From Candidatus Omnitrophota bacterium (lineage in GTDB: Bacteria > Omnitrophota > Gorgyraeia > JABMRN01 > RBG-13-46-9), in contig JAUWBJ010000002.1 in the NCBI GenBank assembly GCA_030605095.1, positions 2,355 through 66,354 of the forward strand: a DNA stretch of 64,000 nucleotides. Reading direction: 5' to 3'. Made by a program: the position numbers and the translations under genes. The notes under the pieces were generated by a model that was not told the origin of the DNA, ran no database searches, and saw only the letters and a list, made by a program, of their open reading frames with translations. The stretch's first letter is position 1. Every line of letters starts with the position of its first letter. Positions 1 through 54,235 of this stretch are shown one piece after another.

Positions 1-221
1 AAGCGCTTATCGGGGCCATAGTTAAAATGAAGGATGTAGACTCGGGAGAAGAGCTTCGGTATACCCTGGTATCGGAGCTGGAAGCGGATTATTCACAGGG
101 CAAGATTTCCGTGGATTCACCCATAGGTAAGGGATTGTTGGGCCATAAGAAAAACGAAATAGTTGAGATTGAAGTTCCCGCAGGTATCCTGAAGTATAAA
201 ATACTAAAGATATCGAGATAA
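1..221 (+). CDS. greA: Transcription elongation factor GreA, C-terminal part (gene starts upstream of window)
   Basis: ORF tail '...SPIGKGLLGHKKNEIVEIEVPAGILKYKILKI' matches the GreA C-terminal FKBP-like domain; the reading frame is open to position 1. Confidence 0.8.
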   Translation, partial: ALIGAIVKMKDVDSGEELRYTLVSELEADYSQGKISVDSPIGKGLLGHKKNEIVEIEVPAGILKYKILKISR

Positions 222-256
222 AGAAACGATTCTCACGAAAAATTTGGTTTATAGTT

Positions 257-285
257 TTGACTTACATCGCTAATTGATGTATAAT
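257..285 (+). promoter_or_regulatory. Consensus sigma70-type promoter (TTGACT, 17-bp spacer, TATAAT)
   Basis: TTGACT at 257-262 and TATAAT at 280-285 with exactly 17 nt between them, about 45 nt upstream of the small ORF at 330. Confidence 0.5.
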
Positions 286-8254: not shown

Positions 8255-8362
8255 GACGCTTTACGCAATAGGCTCATCGCAGCAAACCAAAGACGTGAAG
8301 CTTCTGTAAGCACAATGATATATATTATCCGCTGCTCTTAAGTTTTTAGAAGGGGGGTCTGG

Positions 8363-10336
8363 ATGAGAACTCAAAAAAATATAGTTTCTAGTTTTAAAAA
8401 AATAAGGAAGGTTAATTTCGGGGCCAGATTCTATAAAGTGGACTTGCATTTTCATACACCGGCATCCGAAGACGCAAGAGGAAAAAACCGCTATAATTTC
8501 AATCCCTACAAAGCTAAGTATCCTACCCATGATTGCGATTTCGAAAAACATTGCGACAAGGTTAAAAAGATTCAGGAAAAAATATTGGCTAATGCAAGAG
8601 AAGTTGCCGCGAAGATAGTCAAGAGATTTGTCGAAGAGAAACTTTCCTTAGTTGCCATAACTGACCATAACGCCATAGGGACATTGTGGCTCGATGCAGG
8701 TTCCAAAGCCGGCATAATGGATTTAAAGGCGCCTACATGGTACGAAATAATTGATGACGAGGCCGAGAAGATAAATGCACAAACAGGCAAAAAGGTTGTA
8801 ACCATACTGCCGGGCGTGGAGATAAGCTGCACAGGGATTCATATTCTGGCGGTTTTTCCGCCACATGAACCTCGGCGGGCGATTCATTTTGTAATATGCG
8901 ACCTTTTGGAAGAAATGGGTTTTGCCATTAAGGAGTGGGGGAAAAATCCTAAGGTCGGTAAAAGAAGCGTAATAGATGCCGTGGATTTAATCCAGCGAAA
9001 AGGCGGAATCGCCATAATCGCACACATAGACGGAAGCGATCAGGCCTTATTGAAACTTTACAAACTTAACAGCGGTGCGATGAAAAACGTGTTTTGTAAC
9101 CAGAAGTTATCGGCCGTTGAGATCGTGAATCCCTCAAAGTTTAGCAGGCAGAATAAAAAGCTCAAAATGACAATAAAGAACTGGATTAAATCGTTAAGGG
9201 TCAAGAGGGAAATTGCCCCAATTGCATATCTTCAGGGTTCGGATGCGCACGATTTAAAATCGATAGGCAAAAGGTTTACTTTTTTAAAGATGACGGTCCC
9301 CTCTTTTACCGGGTTAAAAATCGCGGTGTGGATTCCTGCCTCAAGGGCCAGAATATCTGAACTTCACAAGAGAGTGACAAAAGGTCTCTACATATACGGC
9401 GTGGAGATAAAAAATAAATATTTCGGCAGGCGTTTCATAAGGTTTAACCGTCACCTCAACTGCGTTGCCGGAGAGAAGGAGTCGGGCAAATCGTCCATTT
9501 TCCAATTGATGCAGAAGGCCGTAAGGCCCGATTCCACAAAAATCAAAGGGGACGTTAAACTGTTCGTTGAAAAGGTAATTGATTCAAGACCGCATCATTA
9601 CGCTTTTTGCAATGATAATAAGAGCGATTTTGTAGATTTATATTCAATAAACAAGGATAAAGGAACGGTAGCCAGAATCAATGCGAGCCGGATGAAGGAA
9701 TTGATGATAGAACCCAAATTTTATCATTCGGGTAAAATCGAGAAATTGATTTCCTCCAAGAATGATTTAAACGCATTTTTAATAAAACATTTCGGAAAGC
9801 CCACAAGACGGAATGTCGCTAATTTTAACAGGATGTTTTCTATTCCGAATTTTCTTGAAACAAAAGAAGAACGGCTTCTTTATGCGGAAGGAGATAACGG
9901 CAGATACAAGCTGCACGTAAATATTAACTGGCATACCGGAAAAGCGAAGATGATGGATTTTTTCAAGTTGCGTAATAGTTTGAGAAGAATTGCCATAATT
10001 TCTATGATAGTTATAAGCGGTAGTTTCGGGCCGTTAATAATTGACGCGCCTGAAAGTAATTTTGATAACGAGGATATTGCACATTTTCTCGTTCCTATCA
10101 TCAAGAAGTATAAAGATTTACGGCAAATTATATTATTTACGGGCAATCCAATTTTAGTCGTAAATTCGGACCCGGAAAATTACGTTTTATTAAGCACAAA
10201 AGGTAAAAAATTTGCCGGTATTAACTCGGGTTTTTCCATTGATGAGAAGGATCAGAAGGAGCACCTTATTAACCTGATGGAAGGCGGGTTAAAGTCGTTT
10301 AAAAAGAGGGCAATTAGATATGGAACTAAGAAATGA
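8363..10336 (+). CDS. PHP-domain phosphoesterase fused to a RecF/OLD-type ABC ATPase (candidate defence or repair nuclease-ATPase)
   Basis: PHP motifs HFH (29-31), DH (101-102), H221 and GSDAH (292-296). N-terminal ABC strand plus Walker A (369-377), a signature-like motif (537-549), Walker B and D-loop (IIDAPESNFD, 559-568). The H-loop is altered to LFTGNP. Confidence 0.6.
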   Translation: MRTQKNIVSSFKKIRKVNFGARFYKVDLHFHTPASEDARGKNRYNFNPYKAKYPTHDCDFEKHCDKVKKIQEKILANAREVAAKIVKRFVEEKLSLVAITDHNAIGTLWLDAGSKAGIMDLKAPTWYEIIDDEAEKINAQTGKKVVTILPGVEISCTGIHILAVFPPHEPRRAIHFVICDLLEEMGFAIKEWGKNPKVGKRSVIDAVDLIQRKGGIAIIAHIDGSDQALLKLYKLNSGAMKNVFCNQKLSAVEIVNPSKFSRQNKKLKMTIKNWIKSLRVKREIAPIAYLQGSDAHDLKSIGKRFTFLKMTVPSFTGLKIAVWIPASRARISELHKRVTKGLYIYGVEIKNKYFGRRFIRFNRHLNCVAGEKESGKSSIFQLMQKAVRPDSTKIKGDVKLFVEKVIDSRPHHYAFCNDNKSDFVDLYSINKDKGTVARINASRMKELMIEPKFYHSGKIEKLISSKNDLNAFLIKHFGKPTRRNVANFNRMFSIPNFLETKEERLLYAEGDNGRYKLHVNINWHTGKAKMMDFFKLRNSLRRIAIISMIVISGSFGPLIIDAPESNFDNEDIAHFLVPIIKKYKDLRQIILFTGNPILVVNSDPENYVLLSTKGKKFAGINSGFSIDEKDQKEHLINLMEGGLKSFKKRAIRYGTKK

Positions 10337-10395
10337 GCTTCAGGACTCCGTAGAATGTGGCTTGGATTGGTTGATACGCCGTCAAAAGCTAGATG

Positions 10396-10457
10396 ACAGG
10401 ACACTGTCTCCTGTGTGAATCGAAGACACTGTCCGGTGTGTTCGGACAATGTCTCTG
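10396..10457 (+). promoter_or_regulatory. Three spaced copies of the palindrome GACANTGTC (putative operator array)
   Basis: ggacactgtctcc (10396-10408), agacactgtccgg (10423-10435) and ggacaatgtctct (10445-10457). They sit 70-130 nt upstream of the ORF at 10527. Confidence 0.35.
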
Positions 10458-10526
10458 TATATGTGTGATTGAGGTCTCTAAGAAGAAAAGGTATTTAAAG
10501 AGTAAGGTAGATTAAGGAGGTGCATT

Positions 10527-10883
10527 ATGAAACAAAGGTTGATACAAATTGCGGAAGATTGCCCTGTTGACAGAGGAATAGTTCAAAAAATTCCTGTACA
10601 TGTCATTCAATACGAAGAATTGTCGAAGCACCCATATAAATACGATGAGAAGAATTTCCATGAACAAGTTAACTTAATTCGCAGAGGGAAAAAGCCAGGA
10701 GAATTGAAATTAAAAAAATATACCATTCGTCGAAATCCCCTTCCCAAAAAATATGGTTGGGGTATTCATGTAAATGAAGATGGAAAACTCGCACTTGTTG
10801 GATGTGAGACGAAAAAATACAAGGAATTAGAAAAAGATCCTAATGTCAAAAAAACAAGGGTAAGCAGAAACAAGAAAATTTGA
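10527..10883 (+). CDS. Hypothetical protein (118 aa, Lys-rich)
   Basis: ATG preceded by TAAGGAGGTG. No recognised domain. Confidence 0.4.
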   Translation: MKQRLIQIAEDCPVDRGIVQKIPVHVIQYEELSKHPYKYDEKNFHEQVNLIRRGKKPGELKLKKYTIRRNPLPKKYGWGIHVNEDGKLALVGCETKKYKELEKDPNVKKTRVSRNKKI

Positions 10884-10905
10884 GGCATAATATTATCAGT
10901 TAAAA

Positions 10906-11100
10906 TTGATGATAACGAAAAGGAAATATTTAATGGCATACGGTTACAATAATAGAGATTTTGAAGAAATGTCTTGGGGGTTCGCCATACTCAACTTTAT
11001 TGTAATTGCAGTTTTGATGGGCGGAATAATCACTATTCCGCTGGCATTGATTTGGATATTTTTTATTGCCCCGGCAATTCTTAAGAATTGGAAGAATTAA
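10906..11100 (+). CDS. Small hydrophobic membrane peptide
   Basis: WGFAILNFIVIAVLMGGIITIPLALIWIFFIAPAIL gives 1-2 predicted TM helices. The start may be the internal Met. Confidence 0.3.
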   Translation: MMITKRKYLMAYGYNNRDFEEMSWGFAILNFIVIAVLMGGIITIPLALIWIFFIAPAILKNWKN

Positions 11101-11217
11101 AACAAAAATGAGTCGAGTCTTAACTTTTAATTTGAACCCCACACCCCATTTTCTCTGCCTTCGCTGAATTGCTTTCGCGTTCAGCTTCGGCGGATCAGCC
11201 TCCGGCTGAAAAAATAA

Positions 11218-11240
11218 CCTGTCGGCAGGCAGGGATGTGT
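11218..11240 (+). repeat. Left copy of a 21-bp direct repeat (TGTCGGCAGGCAGGGATGTGT)
   Basis: 20 of 21 positions match 12118-12138. It ends 14 bp before the ATG at 11254. Confidence 0.5.
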
Positions 11241-11253
11241 ATGATAAAAATAT

Positions 11254-12111
11254 ATGAATGCATTTGAATATATTCTTTCAAAACAAATTCTTTGGGCACA
11301 CAATAACAAAATAAAGCTTGTTGGTAGCAAAGGCAAACGAGGTCGACCAGCCTATACACCAAGACTGGAGAATAATTTATTCGAACCTTTAAAACCATCT
11401 GTGAGGAGAGACTTCGAAAGTGGCGATGGAGGGGAATTAACAGGAAATCCTTCAAAGATGAGTGCGCTCCATTCTTCATCAGCATTAGGAGTAAATATCT
11501 TCCAATATTGGTTAAAAACAGAACAAATTCCAAAGATTGCAGCCGCGTGTGGTTTCTGTAACAAAAATAACAACAGGTCCTGGAATATTAAGTTTGAACA
11601 GAAATACCCTATAAGTAAGAAATTCAGGTACAGTCCAAACATCGATGTTGTCATAGAGAATTCGTTGGAAACAAAGTTTAGAGTATTTGCAATCGAATGT
11701 AAATTCTCAGAAGCGTATTCTTCGCATAAGCACTCAGGGCTTAAACAAAAATATATCAAATTGGATGAAGCATGGGATAAAGTGTCACACCTACGCACTT
11801 TTGCAAAATCAATAAGTCCAGAAGATCGCAAGTTTAATTACCTCCACCCGGCGCAACTAGTTAAACATATCCTGGGATTGACGAAAAAGTTTGGCAAGAA
11901 TAAATTCCGTCTTCTTTATCTCTGGTACGATTGTTTGGGCCATGAGGGAGCAAGGCACAAGGATGAAATAGACGAATTCACAAAGATTACCAGGAGAGAC
12001 GGCATTCGTTTTCATGCTTTGAGCTACCAAGAGCTCATTATTAGATTGTCCTCTGAATACAGTAACAAGCATGAAAGTTATATTAAATACATATCTGAAC
12101 GTTATCTATAA
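11254..12111 (+). CDS. Hypothetical protein with a PD-(D/E)xK-like nuclease motif
   Basis: NIDVVIE...FAIECKF fits the D...(E)xK core of restriction-endonuclease-like folds. The gene is exactly flanked by the 21-bp direct repeats. Confidence 0.4.
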   Translation: MNAFEYILSKQILWAHNNKIKLVGSKGKRGRPAYTPRLENNLFEPLKPSVRRDFESGDGGELTGNPSKMSALHSSSALGVNIFQYWLKTEQIPKIAAACGFCNKNNNRSWNIKFEQKYPISKKFRYSPNIDVVIENSLETKFRVFAIECKFSEAYSSHKHSGLKQKYIKLDEAWDKVSHLRTFAKSISPEDRKFNYLHPAQLVKHILGLTKKFGKNKFRLLYLWYDCLGHEGARHKDEIDEFTKITRRDGIRFHALSYQELIIRLSSEYSNKHESYIKYISERYL

Positions 12112-12117
12112 AAGGCC

Positions 12118-12138
12118 TGCCGGCAGGCAGGGATGTGT
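12118..12138 (+). repeat. Right copy of the 21-bp direct repeat (TGCCGGCAGGCAGGGATGTGT); contains the perfect palindrome CCTGCCGGCAGG
   Basis: Starts 7 bp after the stop codon of the 11254-12111 gene. The palindrome lies at 12116-12127. Confidence 0.5.
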
Positions 12139-12157
12139 TCATATTTAAAAGAAAACC

Positions 12158-12955
12158 ATGAAAATATCTAAACCATTAGTAGTGTTTGACCTTGAGACAA
12201 CAGGTACATGGATAGAGAAAGACAAAATAGTAGAAATCGGAATGATTAAGTGTCTCCCTGACGGTTCAAAGAAAGATTACGTAAAGCGCGTGAATCCCGG
12301 CATGCCGATTCCTTCGAGTGTCAGCAAGGTTACAGGAATCACAAACGAAGATGTCAAAAATGCCCCACCATTTAAAAGTATAGCTGCGGAAATATTATTT
12401 TTCATAGACAAATACGATCTGGCAGGCTTTGGCATAGAGCGTTTTGACCTACCTATCCTCGAAAGAGAAATGGTAGAGGCTGGCTTAAAATTTGAGCGCG
12501 GCGACAGAGTGGTTTATGACGCACAGAAAATATATCACATACACGAGAAAAGAACGCTAGTAGCTGCTTACCAGTTTTACTGCAATAAGGATCTTGTTAA
12601 GGCTCATTCGGCGATGGGCGATGTGGAGGCGACCATCGAAATACTTGATGATCAGGTTAGAAGATATGGTACGGAAAAGGAAGGAATAGAATCCCTAAAA
12701 GAACTTGACTATACCCGCTCCACGGAATATTTCGACAAAGAGAGGAAATTCCGTTGGTGGAACGGAGAGCTTTACCCGGTATTCGGAAAGTTTGCACGAA
12801 GACATAGCATAAAGGAGATCGCACAAAAAGAACCCTCATATCTAGAATGGATATTGAACCAGGATTTCACCAAAGATGTTAAGCTGATGGTAAAAGGAGC
12901 CCTCGAAGGCAAATTCCCCGAACCATCGGCAAAATCGGATATAGGAATAGGGTGA
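12158..12955 (+). CDS. DEDDh 3'-5' exonuclease (DnaQ/epsilon-like) with C-terminal extension
   Basis: Exo I VVFDLETTG, Exo II and Exo III HSAMGDVEAT motifs. Confidence 0.75.
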   Translation: MKISKPLVVFDLETTGTWIEKDKIVEIGMIKCLPDGSKKDYVKRVNPGMPIPSSVSKVTGITNEDVKNAPPFKSIAAEILFFIDKYDLAGFGIERFDLPILEREMVEAGLKFERGDRVVYDAQKIYHIHEKRTLVAAYQFYCNKDLVKAHSAMGDVEATIEILDDQVRRYGTEKEGIESLKELDYTRSTEYFDKERKFRWWNGELYPVFGKFARRHSIKEIAQKEPSYLEWILNQDFTKDVKLMVKGALEGKFPEPSAKSDIGIG

Positions 12956-53699: not shown

Positions 53700-53875
53700 T
53701 ATTCTACTCCCCTTCCTATTAGGAGGGGGTACAGCGAGCGAAGCGAGCGTCATAGGGGGGAACCTGGGTTCCCCTTTGAAATGATTTGGCGTCAGCCTCA
53801 GCCGAAGGCTGAGGTTCCTATTGAAAAAAGAGAATCCCGCACTTTTTTCGGCAGGAACCAAATCAGTATAAGAAG
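53700..53875 (-). repeat. Structured repeat of about 180 nt, copy 2 (immediately 3' of tRNA-Lys)
   Basis: Shares ctttgaaatgatttggcgtcagcctcagccgaaggctgaggtt and the family-1 hairpin with copy 1. Differs by paired substitutions in the stems. Confidence 0.5.
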
Positions 53876-54235
53876 TACCCCGCAGAGGACTCGAACCTCT
53901 CACAATCGCCTTAAACACTATTGTTACCCTACCATAAGATAGAGGGCCAATTCGGTTATATTGGCCTCTGCATATCGCTATGCAGGTCAGACTATACAAT
54001 CTTCGCGAAATATAAAATTTCACGAAGTCCTGATTATAGTCGTTGAACCTCCCCCGTTCTTGCACGCAAGGGCGGGGTTTGGCTGCGGATTGTCTGCATC
54101 GCTGTATTTTTACCTGATACGGTAACAGCGAATACGCCAGAGTTTCCCGCAATTTACAGGATTTTCATCTATTAGTTACCTAATAGCGCCCCTTATTAAA
54201 AAAGGGCGGTGCTCTACCAGATGAGCTAGCGGGGC
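53876..54235 (-). tRNA. tRNA-Lys(UUU) interrupted by a group I intron (exon 1 54235-54203, intron 54202-53916, exon 2 53915-53876)
   Basis: Exon 1 GCCCCGCUAGCUCAUCUGGUAGAGCACCGCCCU plus exon 2 UUUAAGGCGAUUGUGAGAGGUUCGAGUCCUCUGCGGGGUA fold into a cloverleaf with loop CUUUUAA. Confidence 0.65.
53916..54202 (-). ncRNA. Group I self-splicing intron (287 nt, no ORF)
   Basis: P-like AAUUGCGGGAAA, Q-like AAUCCGCAGCC, R-like GUUCAACGACUAUAA and S-like GAUUGUAUAGUCUG elements. P1 pairs exon CGCCCU with IGS GGGGCG (U.G at the 5' splice site). Terminal G precedes exon 2. Confidence 0.7.

What the first reader, a model, noticed from the sequence alone, without database searches (positions are those of the whole stretch)
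8363..10336. Single-polypeptide fusion of a PHP phosphoesterase domain to a RecF/OLD-type ABC ATPase
The N-terminal 300 aa carry the ordered PHP metal-ligand motifs HxH (HFH at 29-31), DH (101-102), H221 and the terminal GSDAH (292-296). The C-terminal half opens with the characteristic RecF/SMC/OLD beta-strand plus P-loop (YIYGVEIKNKYF...LNCVAGEKESGKSS). It also has a degenerate signature helix (LRNSLRRIAIISM), a Walker B/D-loop (LIIDAPESNFD) in which the catalytic Glu is shifted (DAPE rather than DE), and an H-loop whose His is replaced (LFTGNP). A nuclease joined to an ABC ATPase is the logic of OLD, Gabija GajA and PARIS AriAB defence proteins, but here the nuclease is a PHP domain and it is N-terminal. 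From memory, a PHP+ATPase single-gene defence candidate called Ppl has been reported in a large defence-system screen; I cannot verify that this protein belongs to it. The neighbourhood adds to the case: an operator-like palindrome array, an unknown 118-aa protein, a small membrane peptide, a repeat-flanked nuclease-like gene and an exonuclease.
Basis: partly seen in the sequence, partly recalled or inferred. Interest (0 to 1): 0.75.

Follow-up and report, generated by a model that had tools for sequence, protein, structure and literature searches.

The report
Short coiled-coil-less relative of Ppl nuclease
This gene encodes a real fusion of a metal-dependent PHP nuclease domain to a Rad50/SMC-type nucleotide-binding domain; it is a compact, previously unclassified cousin of the known single-gene anti-phage protein Ppl, and its ATPase half has lost the coiled coil and most residues needed to hydrolyse ATP.

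Summary
ORF 8363-10336 (+, 657 aa) has an N-terminal PHP domain with all nine metal ligands and a C-terminal Rad50/SMC-type ABC domain.

The protein is significantly related to TrlF (E 3e-68), Spaf_1101 and Ppl (E 5e-41; PADLOC Ppl 7e-30). It fails all three curated NCBIfam cut-offs (231/350, 206/475, 141/1000 bits).

It belongs to a monophyletic clade of about 655 aa (99/100 bootstrap). Compared with the 800-950-aa forms, this clade:
- lacks about 335 residues of helical and accessory insert between the ATPase lobes;
- lacks the Q-loop Gln, the SxGQ signature and the H-loop His, and has `DAPE` where the long forms have `DQPE`;
- keeps the P-loop, the Walker B Asp and the D-loop.

The gene is stand-alone, with no conserved neighbour in 41 independent contexts. 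It is rare and scattered across phyla, absent from viral contigs, and not enriched in defence islands.

Best reading: a Ppl-like PHP nuclease gated by nucleotide binding. A role in phage or mobile-element defence is inferred from homology only. It is a new variant of a known kind, of moderate interest.

The parts
8363..10336 (+). Complete gene for the 657-aa PHP / ABC-type nucleotide-binding fusion protein (stop codon included)
   Evidence: ORF list; ATG/TGA and motifs checked; N-terminus co-linear with more than 120 homologues
8350..8357 (+). Likely ribosome-binding site AAGGGGGG, 5 nt upstream of the ATG
   Evidence: Read directly from the sequence; inference only
8420..9367 (+). PHP phosphoesterase/nuclease domain (aa 20-335). 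Metal ligands H29, H31, D37, H102, E153, H160, H221, D294, H296
8480..8638 (+). Clade-specific insertion in the PHP domain (aa 40-92, mostly one long helix 60-91), gapped or much shorter in TrlF
   Evidence: BLASTP gaps against plasmid and archaeal TrlF; helix in the model
9374..9574 (+). ABC domain N-lobe (aa 338-404) with Walker A G370-x4-G375-K376-S377 (nt 9470-9493)
9575..9967 (+). Short middle region (aa 405-535): beta subdomain plus short helices. It replaces the ~470-aa helical/accessory region of TrlF/Ppl-like proteins. The Q-loop column (S456 in KFYHSGKI, nt 9716-9739) has no Gln
   Evidence: Model secondary structure compared with the long-form model, which has helices 413-653 plus a module at 659-762; BLASTP co-ordinates; Q-loop alignment
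9968..10321 (+). ABC domain C-lobe (aa 536-653). It contains a degenerate signature N538-S539-L-R-R (nt 9974-9988), Walker B/D-loop LIIDAPESNFD (nt 10034-10066) and an H-loop column LFTGNP with Gly in place of His (nt 10133-10150)
   Evidence: C-lobe alignment against TrlF, Spaf_1101 and Ppl-like forms; motif counts
10337..12157 (.). Context only, not shown to be functionally linked: a variable slot between the gene and a DEDDh exonuclease gene. It holds three GACAnTGTC palindromes (10399-10455), a DUF6157 gene (10527-10883), a 64-aa membrane peptide ORF (10906-11100) and a REase-ARP PD-(D/E)XK gene (11254-12111) flanked by 23-nt direct repeats
   Evidence: Pfam; repeats; homology to the 91% relative stops at the stop codon and resumes ~12 nt before the RNase_T start

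Best explanation
The gene encodes a stand-alone, short-form member of the PHP-nuclease + SMC-like ATPase superfamily that includes Ppl, TrlF and Spaf_1101. SHOWN: (1) the N-terminal PHP domain has a complete and invariant nine-ligand trinuclear metal site and is the most conserved part of the protein, so it is the catalytic effector. (2) The C-terminal half has the fold of a Rad50/SMC/RecF-type ABC head and an intact P-loop, Walker B Asp and D-loop. It lacks the Q-loop Gln, the SxGQ signature, a Glu or Gln next to the Walker B Asp, the H-loop His and the long helical insert. INFERRED: the ABC half binds a nucleotide but hydrolyses it poorly or not at all, and it acts as a nucleotide-occupancy sensor or conformational gate for the PHP site. 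By analogy with E. coli Ppl, the PHP domain would degrade DNA from 3'-OH ends once cellular NTP levels fall during infection. Ppl is reported to be a 3'-5' ssDNA exonuclease held off by NTPs bound to both domains and released by NTP depletion plus 3'-OH overhangs. The most likely biological role is single-gene defence against phages or other mobile DNA.
For: Homology: TrlF E 3.1e-68, Spaf_1101 7.9e-61, Ppl 4.7e-41; PADLOC Ppl 6.8e-30; 1,717 superfamily clusters at E<=1e-10. Structure: confident two-domain model; PHP half matches EndoQ, TM0559, RNase AM and PolC/PolIII PHP domains, and ABC half matches Smc, Rad50, RecF, SbcC, JetC and GajA. Conservation in 124 clade members: PHP ligands 99-100%, K376 122/124, D561 117/124, P563 122/124, E564 114/124; never Gln at the Q-loop column and never His at the H-loop column. 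Mean pairwise identity is 0.60 for PHP against 0.35-0.52 for the ABC parts. Long forms keep YSQxEI, SxGQK, DQPE and THN, and they too lack the canonical catalytic Glu at +1. Single-gene status: no conserved neighbour in 41 independent contexts. Accessory status: 18 loci among 185,579 species genomes, spread over Omnitrophota, Gemmatimonadota, Myxococcota, Desulfobacterota, Anaerolineales, Campylobacterales and Scalindua. Location differs even between 86-91% identical copies. Relatives are defence-linked: TrlF lies beside a type II R-M system on a conjugative plasmid and beside DUF1156/DUF262/DUF499 genes on an archaeal plasmid. Ppl mechanism as summarised in PMC12904381 and PMC13434339.
Against: No experiment exists for any member of this clade. 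It fails all three curated family cut-offs. Neighbours are mostly housekeeping or metabolic genes, and only a few of 221 neighbour ORFs hit PADLOC models, so the usual guilt-by-association support for defence is absent. The family was not found on viral contigs, and PHROGs gave no hit. The parts that Ppl may need for DNA-end sensing (the helical insert and extra module) are missing, so the Ppl mechanism may not transfer. The primary Ppl paper could not be read, so its mechanism is known here only second-hand. Loss of hydrolysis is inferred from motifs alone. E564 (the +3 Glu), which is retained throughout the superfamily, could still support catalysis.
Confidence: 0.55

Rival explanations
1. 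An accessory DNA-repair or DNA-end-processing nuclease rather than an immune protein. It would be a one-chain analogue of Mre11-Rad50/SbcCD logic, or an EndoQ/PolX-PHP-like lesion or 3'-end processing enzyme, with the ABC domain acting as a DNA or nucleotide clamp.
Against: The distribution is extremely rare and patchy (18 of 185,579 species genomes), there is no conserved synteny with any repair operon, and location differs between near-identical copies. This is typical of accessory or mobile genes, not of repair pathways. All named relatives are Ppl, TrlF or Spaf_1101, which sit with R-M and other defence genes on plasmids. RNase_T is not a recurrent neighbour across the 41 groups.
Confidence: 0.22
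2. A bona fide member of the Ppl (or TrlF) family with a working ATPase motor: the first reader's lead taken literally.
For: Significant HMM matches to Ppl and TrlF; same domain order; same DxPE Walker B pattern as the long forms. PADLOC's Ppl model matches at 6.8e-30, so an automated pipeline might label it Ppl.
Against: Scores are 141/1000 (Ppl), 231/350 (TrlF) and 206/475 (Spaf_1101) bits, whereas long representatives reach 480-576 bits on TrlF. About 335 residues of the middle region are missing. The Q-loop Gln, SxGQ signature and H-loop His are absent in the clade but conserved in the long forms. The clade is monophyletic and distinct (99/100).
Confidence: 0.08
3. A PHP phosphoesterase acting on small molecules or RNA (nucleotides, pAp, cyclic or linear oligonucleotides, RNA 5' ends as in RNase AM) rather than on DNA, with the P-loop domain binding the substrate or an effector.
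Against: These hits are far weaker than those to TrlF, Ppl or EndoQ. Fusion to an SMC/Rad50-type head is characteristic of DNA-handling proteins. The only characterised relative, Ppl, is reported as a DNA exonuclease.
Confidence: 0.1

Closest known systems
Ppl (Gao et al. 2020; mechanism Xu et al. 2026, Mol Cell 86:180; NCBIfam NF042955, PADLOC PDLC02208)
   Same: Single-gene architecture; N-terminal PHP domain with a full metal site; C-terminal SMC/Rad50-like P-loop domain; Walker B of the D-x-P-E type without the canonical Glu at +1; significant HMM homology (E 4.7e-41 and 6.8e-30).
   Different: 657 aa against about 880 aa. No long helical insert or extra module between the lobes. No Q-loop Gln, SxGQ signature or H-loop His. 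DAPE instead of DQPE. An extra ~50-aa helix inserted in the PHP domain. 141 bits against a cut-off of 1000. No experimental evidence of defence. Found in uncultivated sediment and aquatic lineages rather than enterobacteria.
TrlF family AAA-like ATPase (NCBIfam NF045780)
   Same: Best-scoring curated family (231 bits, E 3e-68) and sister group in the tree. Aligns over PHP + N-lobe (aa 19-404 to 4-328) and over the C-lobe (541-652 to 801-911).
   Different: Below the 350-bit cut-off and lacking the ~470-aa middle region. TrlF keeps SxGQK, DQPE and THN. TrlF is common on conjugative plasmids (1,034 PLSDB records matched in the protein search, 772 of them conjugative, including TrlF- and Spaf_1101-annotated genes) and lies next to R-M genes; this clade is chromosomal, rare and without such neighbours. 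I found no literature on TrlF itself.
Spaf_1101 family AAA-like ATPase (NCBIfam NF045781)
   Same: Same PHP + SMC-like layout; 206 bits, E 8e-61.
   Different: Below the 475-bit cut-off; a separate branch in the tree; the long form has canonical motifs; found in Firmicutes plasmids between resolvase and IS genes.
Mre11-Rad50 / SbcCD, and the OLD, GajA and AriA class of nuclease + ABC ATPase proteins
   Same: General logic of a nuclease governed by an ABC-type head. The ABC half superposes on Rad50, SbcC and GajA heads.
   Different: Here the nuclease is a PHP domain (not a Mre11 phosphodiesterase or TOPRIM), it is fused N-terminally in one chain, and the head lacks a coiled coil and the hydrolysis motifs.
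EndoQ (PHP-fold lesion-specific DNA endonuclease, PDB 5zb8)
   Different: 16% identity; EndoQ has no ABC domain; no evidence here for lesion specificity.

Membership tests
Ppl (NCBIfam NF042955 equivalog) | Whole-protein score at or above the curated cut-off (1000 bits) | tested here: not met
   140.7 bits, E 4.7e-41
Ppl | Single-gene system (no obligatory partner gene) | tested here: met
   No conserved neighbour in 41 independent contexts
Ppl | N-terminal PHP domain with a complete metal-binding site | tested here: met
Ppl | Full-length architecture of ~880 aa with a large helical region between the two ATPase lobes | tested here: not met
   657 aa with a middle region of ~135 aa against ~470 aa. 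The model of the Ppl-like P0233 has helices 413-653 plus a module at 659-762, which are absent in the model
Ppl | Anti-phage activity; 3'-5' ssDNA exonuclease inhibited by NTPs | not testable with these tools
   Needs plaque assays and biochemistry. The property is known for E. coli Ppl only through citing papers
TrlF family (NCBIfam NF045780) | Score at or above 350 bits with an end-to-end match | tested here: not met
   231.4 bits in two separate stretches. Long representatives score 480-576 bits in one stretch
Spaf_1101 family (NCBIfam NF045781) | Score at or above 475 bits | tested here: not met
   206.5 bits; P0156 scores 501.7
PHP superfamily (Pfam PF02811) | Pfam gathering score of 26.4 bits | tested here: not met
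   12.9 bits, E 0.14
PHP superfamily | PHP fold plus the HxH, D/H, H, E, H, H, DxH ligand set | tested here: met
SMC/Rad50/RecF-type ABC ATPases | ABC head fold with Walker A, Walker B Asp and D-loop | tested here: met
SMC/Rad50/RecF-type ABC ATPases | Catalytic set: Q-loop Gln, signature SxGQ, Glu after the Walker B Asp, H-loop His | tested here: not met
   The columns hold A/P/S, S-L-R-R, Ala and N/S/G respectively across 124 members
SMC/Rad50/RecF-type ABC ATPases | Coiled-coil insertion between the lobes | tested here: not met
   Only short helices at 443-491 in the model
OLD / Gabija GajA / PARIS AriA | N-terminal ABC ATPase followed by a C-terminal TOPRIM nuclease | tested here: not met

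The most novel reading that the evidence does not exclude
The ~655-aa clade is a natural minimal version of the Ppl/TrlF immune nuclease. The ABC head would have become a pure nucleotide-sensing pseudo-ATPase, with no coiled coil, Q-loop, signature or H-loop, that gates a PHP nuclease. This would show that NTP sensing, rather than ATP-driven DNA handling, is the core of this superfamily's mechanism, and it would provide a compact model for dissecting it. Alternatively, the clade is a non-immune repair enzyme related to the lineage from which the plasmid-borne defence forms arose.
Probability: 0.35. Interest if true: 0.55.

Novelty: new variant of a known kind. Interest (0 to 1): 0.4.

Why it matters
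PHP + ATPase single-gene defence (Ppl) is already known, so the fusion itself is not new. What is new is a well-populated, strongly conserved and unclassified clade that keeps the PHP active site intact while removing the coiled coil and four of the canonical ATP-hydrolysis elements from the ABC half. If the clade is a working immune nuclease, nucleotide binding alone may be enough to regulate this class of effector, which fits the emerging theme of NTP depletion as an infection signal. It would also give a much smaller protein for structural and mechanistic work. In addition, it flags a gap in curated annotation: members are currently labelled "hypothetical", "EcfA2" or "TrpH-like", and automated defence finders may either miss them or mislabel them as Ppl.

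Tried and rejected
PHP and AAA_23 are both below threshold, so Pfam cannot be used to establish the domains.
- **PDB sequence searches:** the single-sequence search gave only a weak EcfA2 C-lobe hit, and the family profile gave nothing. No solved Ppl-like structure was found by either search.
- **Literature on TrlF:** only unrelated uses of the acronym. The primary Ppl papers, Xu 2026 and Gao 2020, are not held.
- **Conserved partner gene:** none. RNase_T recurs only in close relatives plus one distant locus. Two-component proteins recur in 11 of 41 groups, which I judge, by a rough estimate from how common such genes are rather than a formal test, to be about what chance would give.
- **Defence-island test:** PADLOC and Pfam scans of 221 neighbour ORFs found only scattered hits, namely SduA-like x2, one UvrD-like, mad2/3/8, AriA and PDC-S01/S27.
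- **Viral origin:** no relatives in IMG/VR and no PHROG hit. The phage database contains only long forms.
- **Promoter and terminator scan:** nothing above the shuffle expectation.
- **Composition:** gene GC is 0.399 against 0.415 for the window, so there is no anomaly.
- **AFDB Foldseek:** the library was not available.
- **E562/E564 covariation:** mutual exclusion is perfect in 124 sequences (Fisher p = 1.6e-9), but all E562 sequences fall in one subclade. I treat it as roughly one event and only suggestive.
Full report
**1.

Window 8363-10336 (+) is one uninterrupted ORF of 657 codons (ATG to TGA), preceded by AAGGGGGG 5 nt upstream.

Pfam alone does not establish the domains: PHP scores E 0.14 and AAA_23 E 1.6e-4, both below gathering. 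Three other lines of evidence do.
- NCBIfam gives TrlF_fam_ATP E 3.1e-68 (231 bits), Spaf_1101 7.9e-61 (206 bits) and Ppl_antiphage 4.7e-41 (141 bits). PADLOC's Ppl model gives 6.8e-30.
- An AlphaFold2 model built on 40 homologues is confident, with pLDDT 87.7 and pTM 0.85.

**2. The family**

A word-indexed search found 550 homologues. The best 120 are almost all 645-670 aa long and 47-98% identical. Named sources include Candidatus Omnitrophota (91% identity, on a 1.43-Mb chromosome), Scalindua, Desulfobacterales and Gemmatimonadota.

The exhaustive search of 1.84 billion representatives shows two tiers.
- About 15-20 clusters of 609-720 aa align end to end.
- After a sharp drop in score, there is a very large set of 790-950-aa proteins that match only in 2-4 separate stretches at 29-36% identity. 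In total 1,717 clusters score E<=1e-10 and 5,034 score E<=1e-3.

When scanned against NCBIfam, the long proteins pass the TrlF cut-off (480-576 bits against 350) or the Spaf_1101 cut-off (P0156: 502 against 475). The short ones fail all three cut-offs. The Ppl model is a narrow equivalog with a 1000-bit cut-off. The nearest representative, P0233, scores 573 on Ppl and 576 on TrlF, so Ppl appears close to or within the TrlF group.

A neighbour-joining tree on 527 shared columns recovers the core ~655-aa clade in 99 of 100 bootstraps. It sits beside the TrlF/Ppl-like group, and the Spaf_1101-like proteins form a separate branch.

**3. How it differs from the long forms**

BLASTP against a plasmid TrlF (917 aa) and an archaeal TrlF (856 aa) aligns residues 19-404 with TrlF 4-328 (PHP plus N-lobe). 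It aligns residues 541-652 with TrlF 801-911 (C-lobe). About 470 TrlF residues therefore correspond to about 135 residues here.

A confident model of the long Ppl-like representative P0233 (pLDDT 87.8) shows what those residues are. It has a run of long helices from 413 to 653, one of them 61 residues long, followed by an extra module at 659-762. My protein has only short helices between residues 443 and 491. In the other direction, it carries a ~50-residue helical insertion in the PHP domain (aa 40-92) that TrlF lacks.

**4. Catalytic residues**

| Element | Short clade, 124 full-length members | Long forms |
|---|---|---|
| PHP ligands H29, H31, D37, H102, E153, H160, H221, D294, H296 | 123-124/124 | present |
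| Walker A | G370 121, G375 121, K376 122, S/T377 120 | present |
| Q-loop | A, P or S; never Gln | YSQxEI |
| Signature | S539 followed by L/M, R/K, R/K | SxGQK |
| Walker B | `DAPE` (A562 102/124, P563 122, E564 114) | `DQPE` (93 of 114) |
| H-loop | N, S, G or K; never His (His one position later in about a quarter) | THN |
| D-loop | D568 112/124 | present |

The PHP domain is the most conserved part of the protein, with a mean pairwise identity of 0.60. The C-lobe is at 0.52, the N-lobe at 0.44 and the middle region at 0.35.

A deeper-branching 609-aa protein, P0141, still has LSAGE and DEPE. The degeneration is therefore specific to the core clade.

One subclade has D-E-P-[G/D/A] instead of `DAPE`. 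Glu at +1 and Glu at +3 are mutually exclusive across the 124 sequences. This probably reflects a single evolutionary event.

From established knowledge of ABC ATPases, the Q-loop Gln, the trans-acting signature, the Walker B Glu and the H-loop His are all needed for efficient hydrolysis in an ATP-sandwich dimer. I therefore infer that this domain binds nucleotide but is at best a very poor ATPase. That is an inference from motifs, not a measurement.

**5. Genomic context**

*Family-wide.* I collected 18 loci from species genomes, 46 from metagenomes and several from exact-protein look-ups. After collapsing copies of at least 85% identity, there are 41 independent contexts.
- The only neighbour family that recurs in three or more groups is generic histidine-kinase/response-regulator proteins (11 groups). 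I judge this to be roughly the chance rate, as a rough estimate and not a formal test.
- The upstream 149-aa membrane protein also recurs, but only among close relatives.
- Scans of 221 neighbour ORFs show mostly housekeeping and metabolic families, with scattered defence-model hits: SduA-like, one UvrD-like, a MADS fragment, AriA and PDC-S01/S27.
- The clade is absent from IMG/VR.
- It occurs in only 18 of 185,579 species genomes, across at least seven phyla or orders. This points to a rare accessory gene spread by horizontal transfer.

*In this window.* In the 91%-identical Omnitrophota genome, GreA directly abuts the gene. Here the GreA 3' end is at window 1-270, and 8 kb of other genes intervene. 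DNA homology between the two genomes ends at the stop codon and resumes about 12 nt before a 90%-identical DEDDh exonuclease gene. The slot between them holds a DUF6868 gene in the relative. In the window it holds a palindrome triplet, a DUF6157 gene, a membrane peptide ORF and a repeat-flanked REase-ARP PD-(D/E)XK gene. So the local neighbourhood is variable, but the family as a whole is not island-associated.

*The long relatives.* A protein search matched 1,034 PLSDB plasmids, 772 of them conjugative. A TrlF gene lies next to a type II R-M pair on an IncFII/IncU plasmid. Another lies next to DUF1156, DUF262 and DUF499 genes on a haloarchaeal plasmid.

**6. What is known about Ppl**

Ppl was introduced as a single-gene PHP + ATPase system (Gao et al. 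2020, as cited in PMC11482910). Phage Bas63 gp130 counteracts it (same paper).

Xu et al. 2026 (Mol Cell 86:180) is not held here. It is summarised in PMC12904381 and PMC13434339. According to those summaries:
- E. coli Ppl is a 3'-5' ssDNA exonuclease;
- it is inhibited by NTPs bound to both the PHP and NTPase domains;
- it is activated by NTP depletion together with 3'-OH overhangs made by a phage homing endonuclease.

**7. Interpretation**

The most economical reading is that this is a compact Ppl/TrlF-like effector. The PHP site does the chemistry, and the degenerate ABC head reports nucleotide occupancy. Even the long forms naturally carry Gln at the catalytic-Glu position (`DQPE`), which in other ABC proteins is the classic hydrolysis-dead substitution that still binds ATP. 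This fits a sensing role across the superfamily, and the short clade takes it further.

The defence function is inferred only from homology and from the accessory, horizontally scattered distribution. The lack of defence-island association and the EndoQ/Rad50-like structural matches keep a DNA-repair role alive as the main rival. The protein is not a member of Ppl, TrlF or Spaf_1101 by the curated criteria, and it is not an OLD, GajA or AriA type.

**8. Verdict**

The feature is real. The neighbourhood argument is weak. Novelty: a new variant (a short, coiled-coil-less form with degenerate hydrolysis motifs) of a known kind. Interest is moderate, at 0.4.

Noticed in passing
window 53968-54212 (-), with flanks ~53875-54235: Strong group I intron (Rfam RF00028, 101.7 bits against a gathering score of 50), preceded by a tRNA-like 5' half. 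ARAGORN in intron mode calls a tRNA-Lys(UUU) with a 265-nt intron in the anticodon loop, but the mature tRNA it draws is 96 nt long with an odd long variable arm, so the 3' exon boundary is uncertain.
   Followed up: partly
window 11218-11240 and 12116-12138: 23-nt direct repeats CCTG(T/C)CGGCAGGCAGGGATGTGT (96% identical, containing the perfect palindrome CCTGCCGGCAGG) bracket the REase-ARP / PD-(D/E)XK gene at 11254-12111. They could be hairpin terminators, REP-like elements or cassette boundaries.
   Followed up: partly
window 10399-10455: Three copies of the palindrome GACA(C/A)TGTC spaced 25 and 20 nt apart, between the PHP-ATPase stop codon and the DUF6157 gene. They look like an operator array, and they are absent from the 91% relative, which carries a different gene in this slot.
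   Followed up: partly
window 10337-12157 compared with L019 11975-12412: The whole segment between the PHP-ATPase gene and the DEDDh exonuclease gene has been swapped between two genomes that are ~90% identical on both sides. It holds DUF6157 + a 64-aa membrane peptide + REase-ARP here, and a single DUF6868 gene there. This is a small variable hot spot.
   Followed up: partly
window 1-270 compared with L019 9719-9988: The 3' end of a GreA-like gene at the very start of the window is directly adjacent to the PHP-ATPase gene in the 91% relative. In the window, 8 kb of genes including Maf and pyruvate kinase lie between them, which indicates a rearrangement or insertion.
   Followed up: no
short-clade proteins P0080, P0081, P0100, P0111, P0113, P0121, P0129 (Walker B column, aa 561-564 of the window protein): One subclade has D-E-P-(G/D/A) instead of D-A-P-E. 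Glu at +1 and Glu at +3 never co-occur in the 124 core-clade sequences, as if a single acidic residue were required at one position or the other. This is probably one evolutionary event.
   Followed up: partly
window 12158-12955 (+); also L019 12423-13217 and L021 11766-12410: A DEDDh (RNase_T) exonuclease with an ExoX-like C-terminus lies near the PHP-ATPase gene in the window, in the 91% relative and, two genes away on the opposite strand, in a 50%-identical member from a 9-Mb genome. It is not a recurrent neighbour across the 41 contexts.
   Followed up: yes
PLSDB plasmids, e.g. L028 (NZ_MF788069.1) and L030 (NZ_CP064792.1): Long TrlF/Spaf_1101-family PHP-ATPase genes are very common on plasmids: 1,034 records matched, 772 of them conjugative, mostly Escherichia and Klebsiella. 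They often lie beside R-M genes and resolvases. I could find no paper that describes 'TrlF'.
   Followed up: partly
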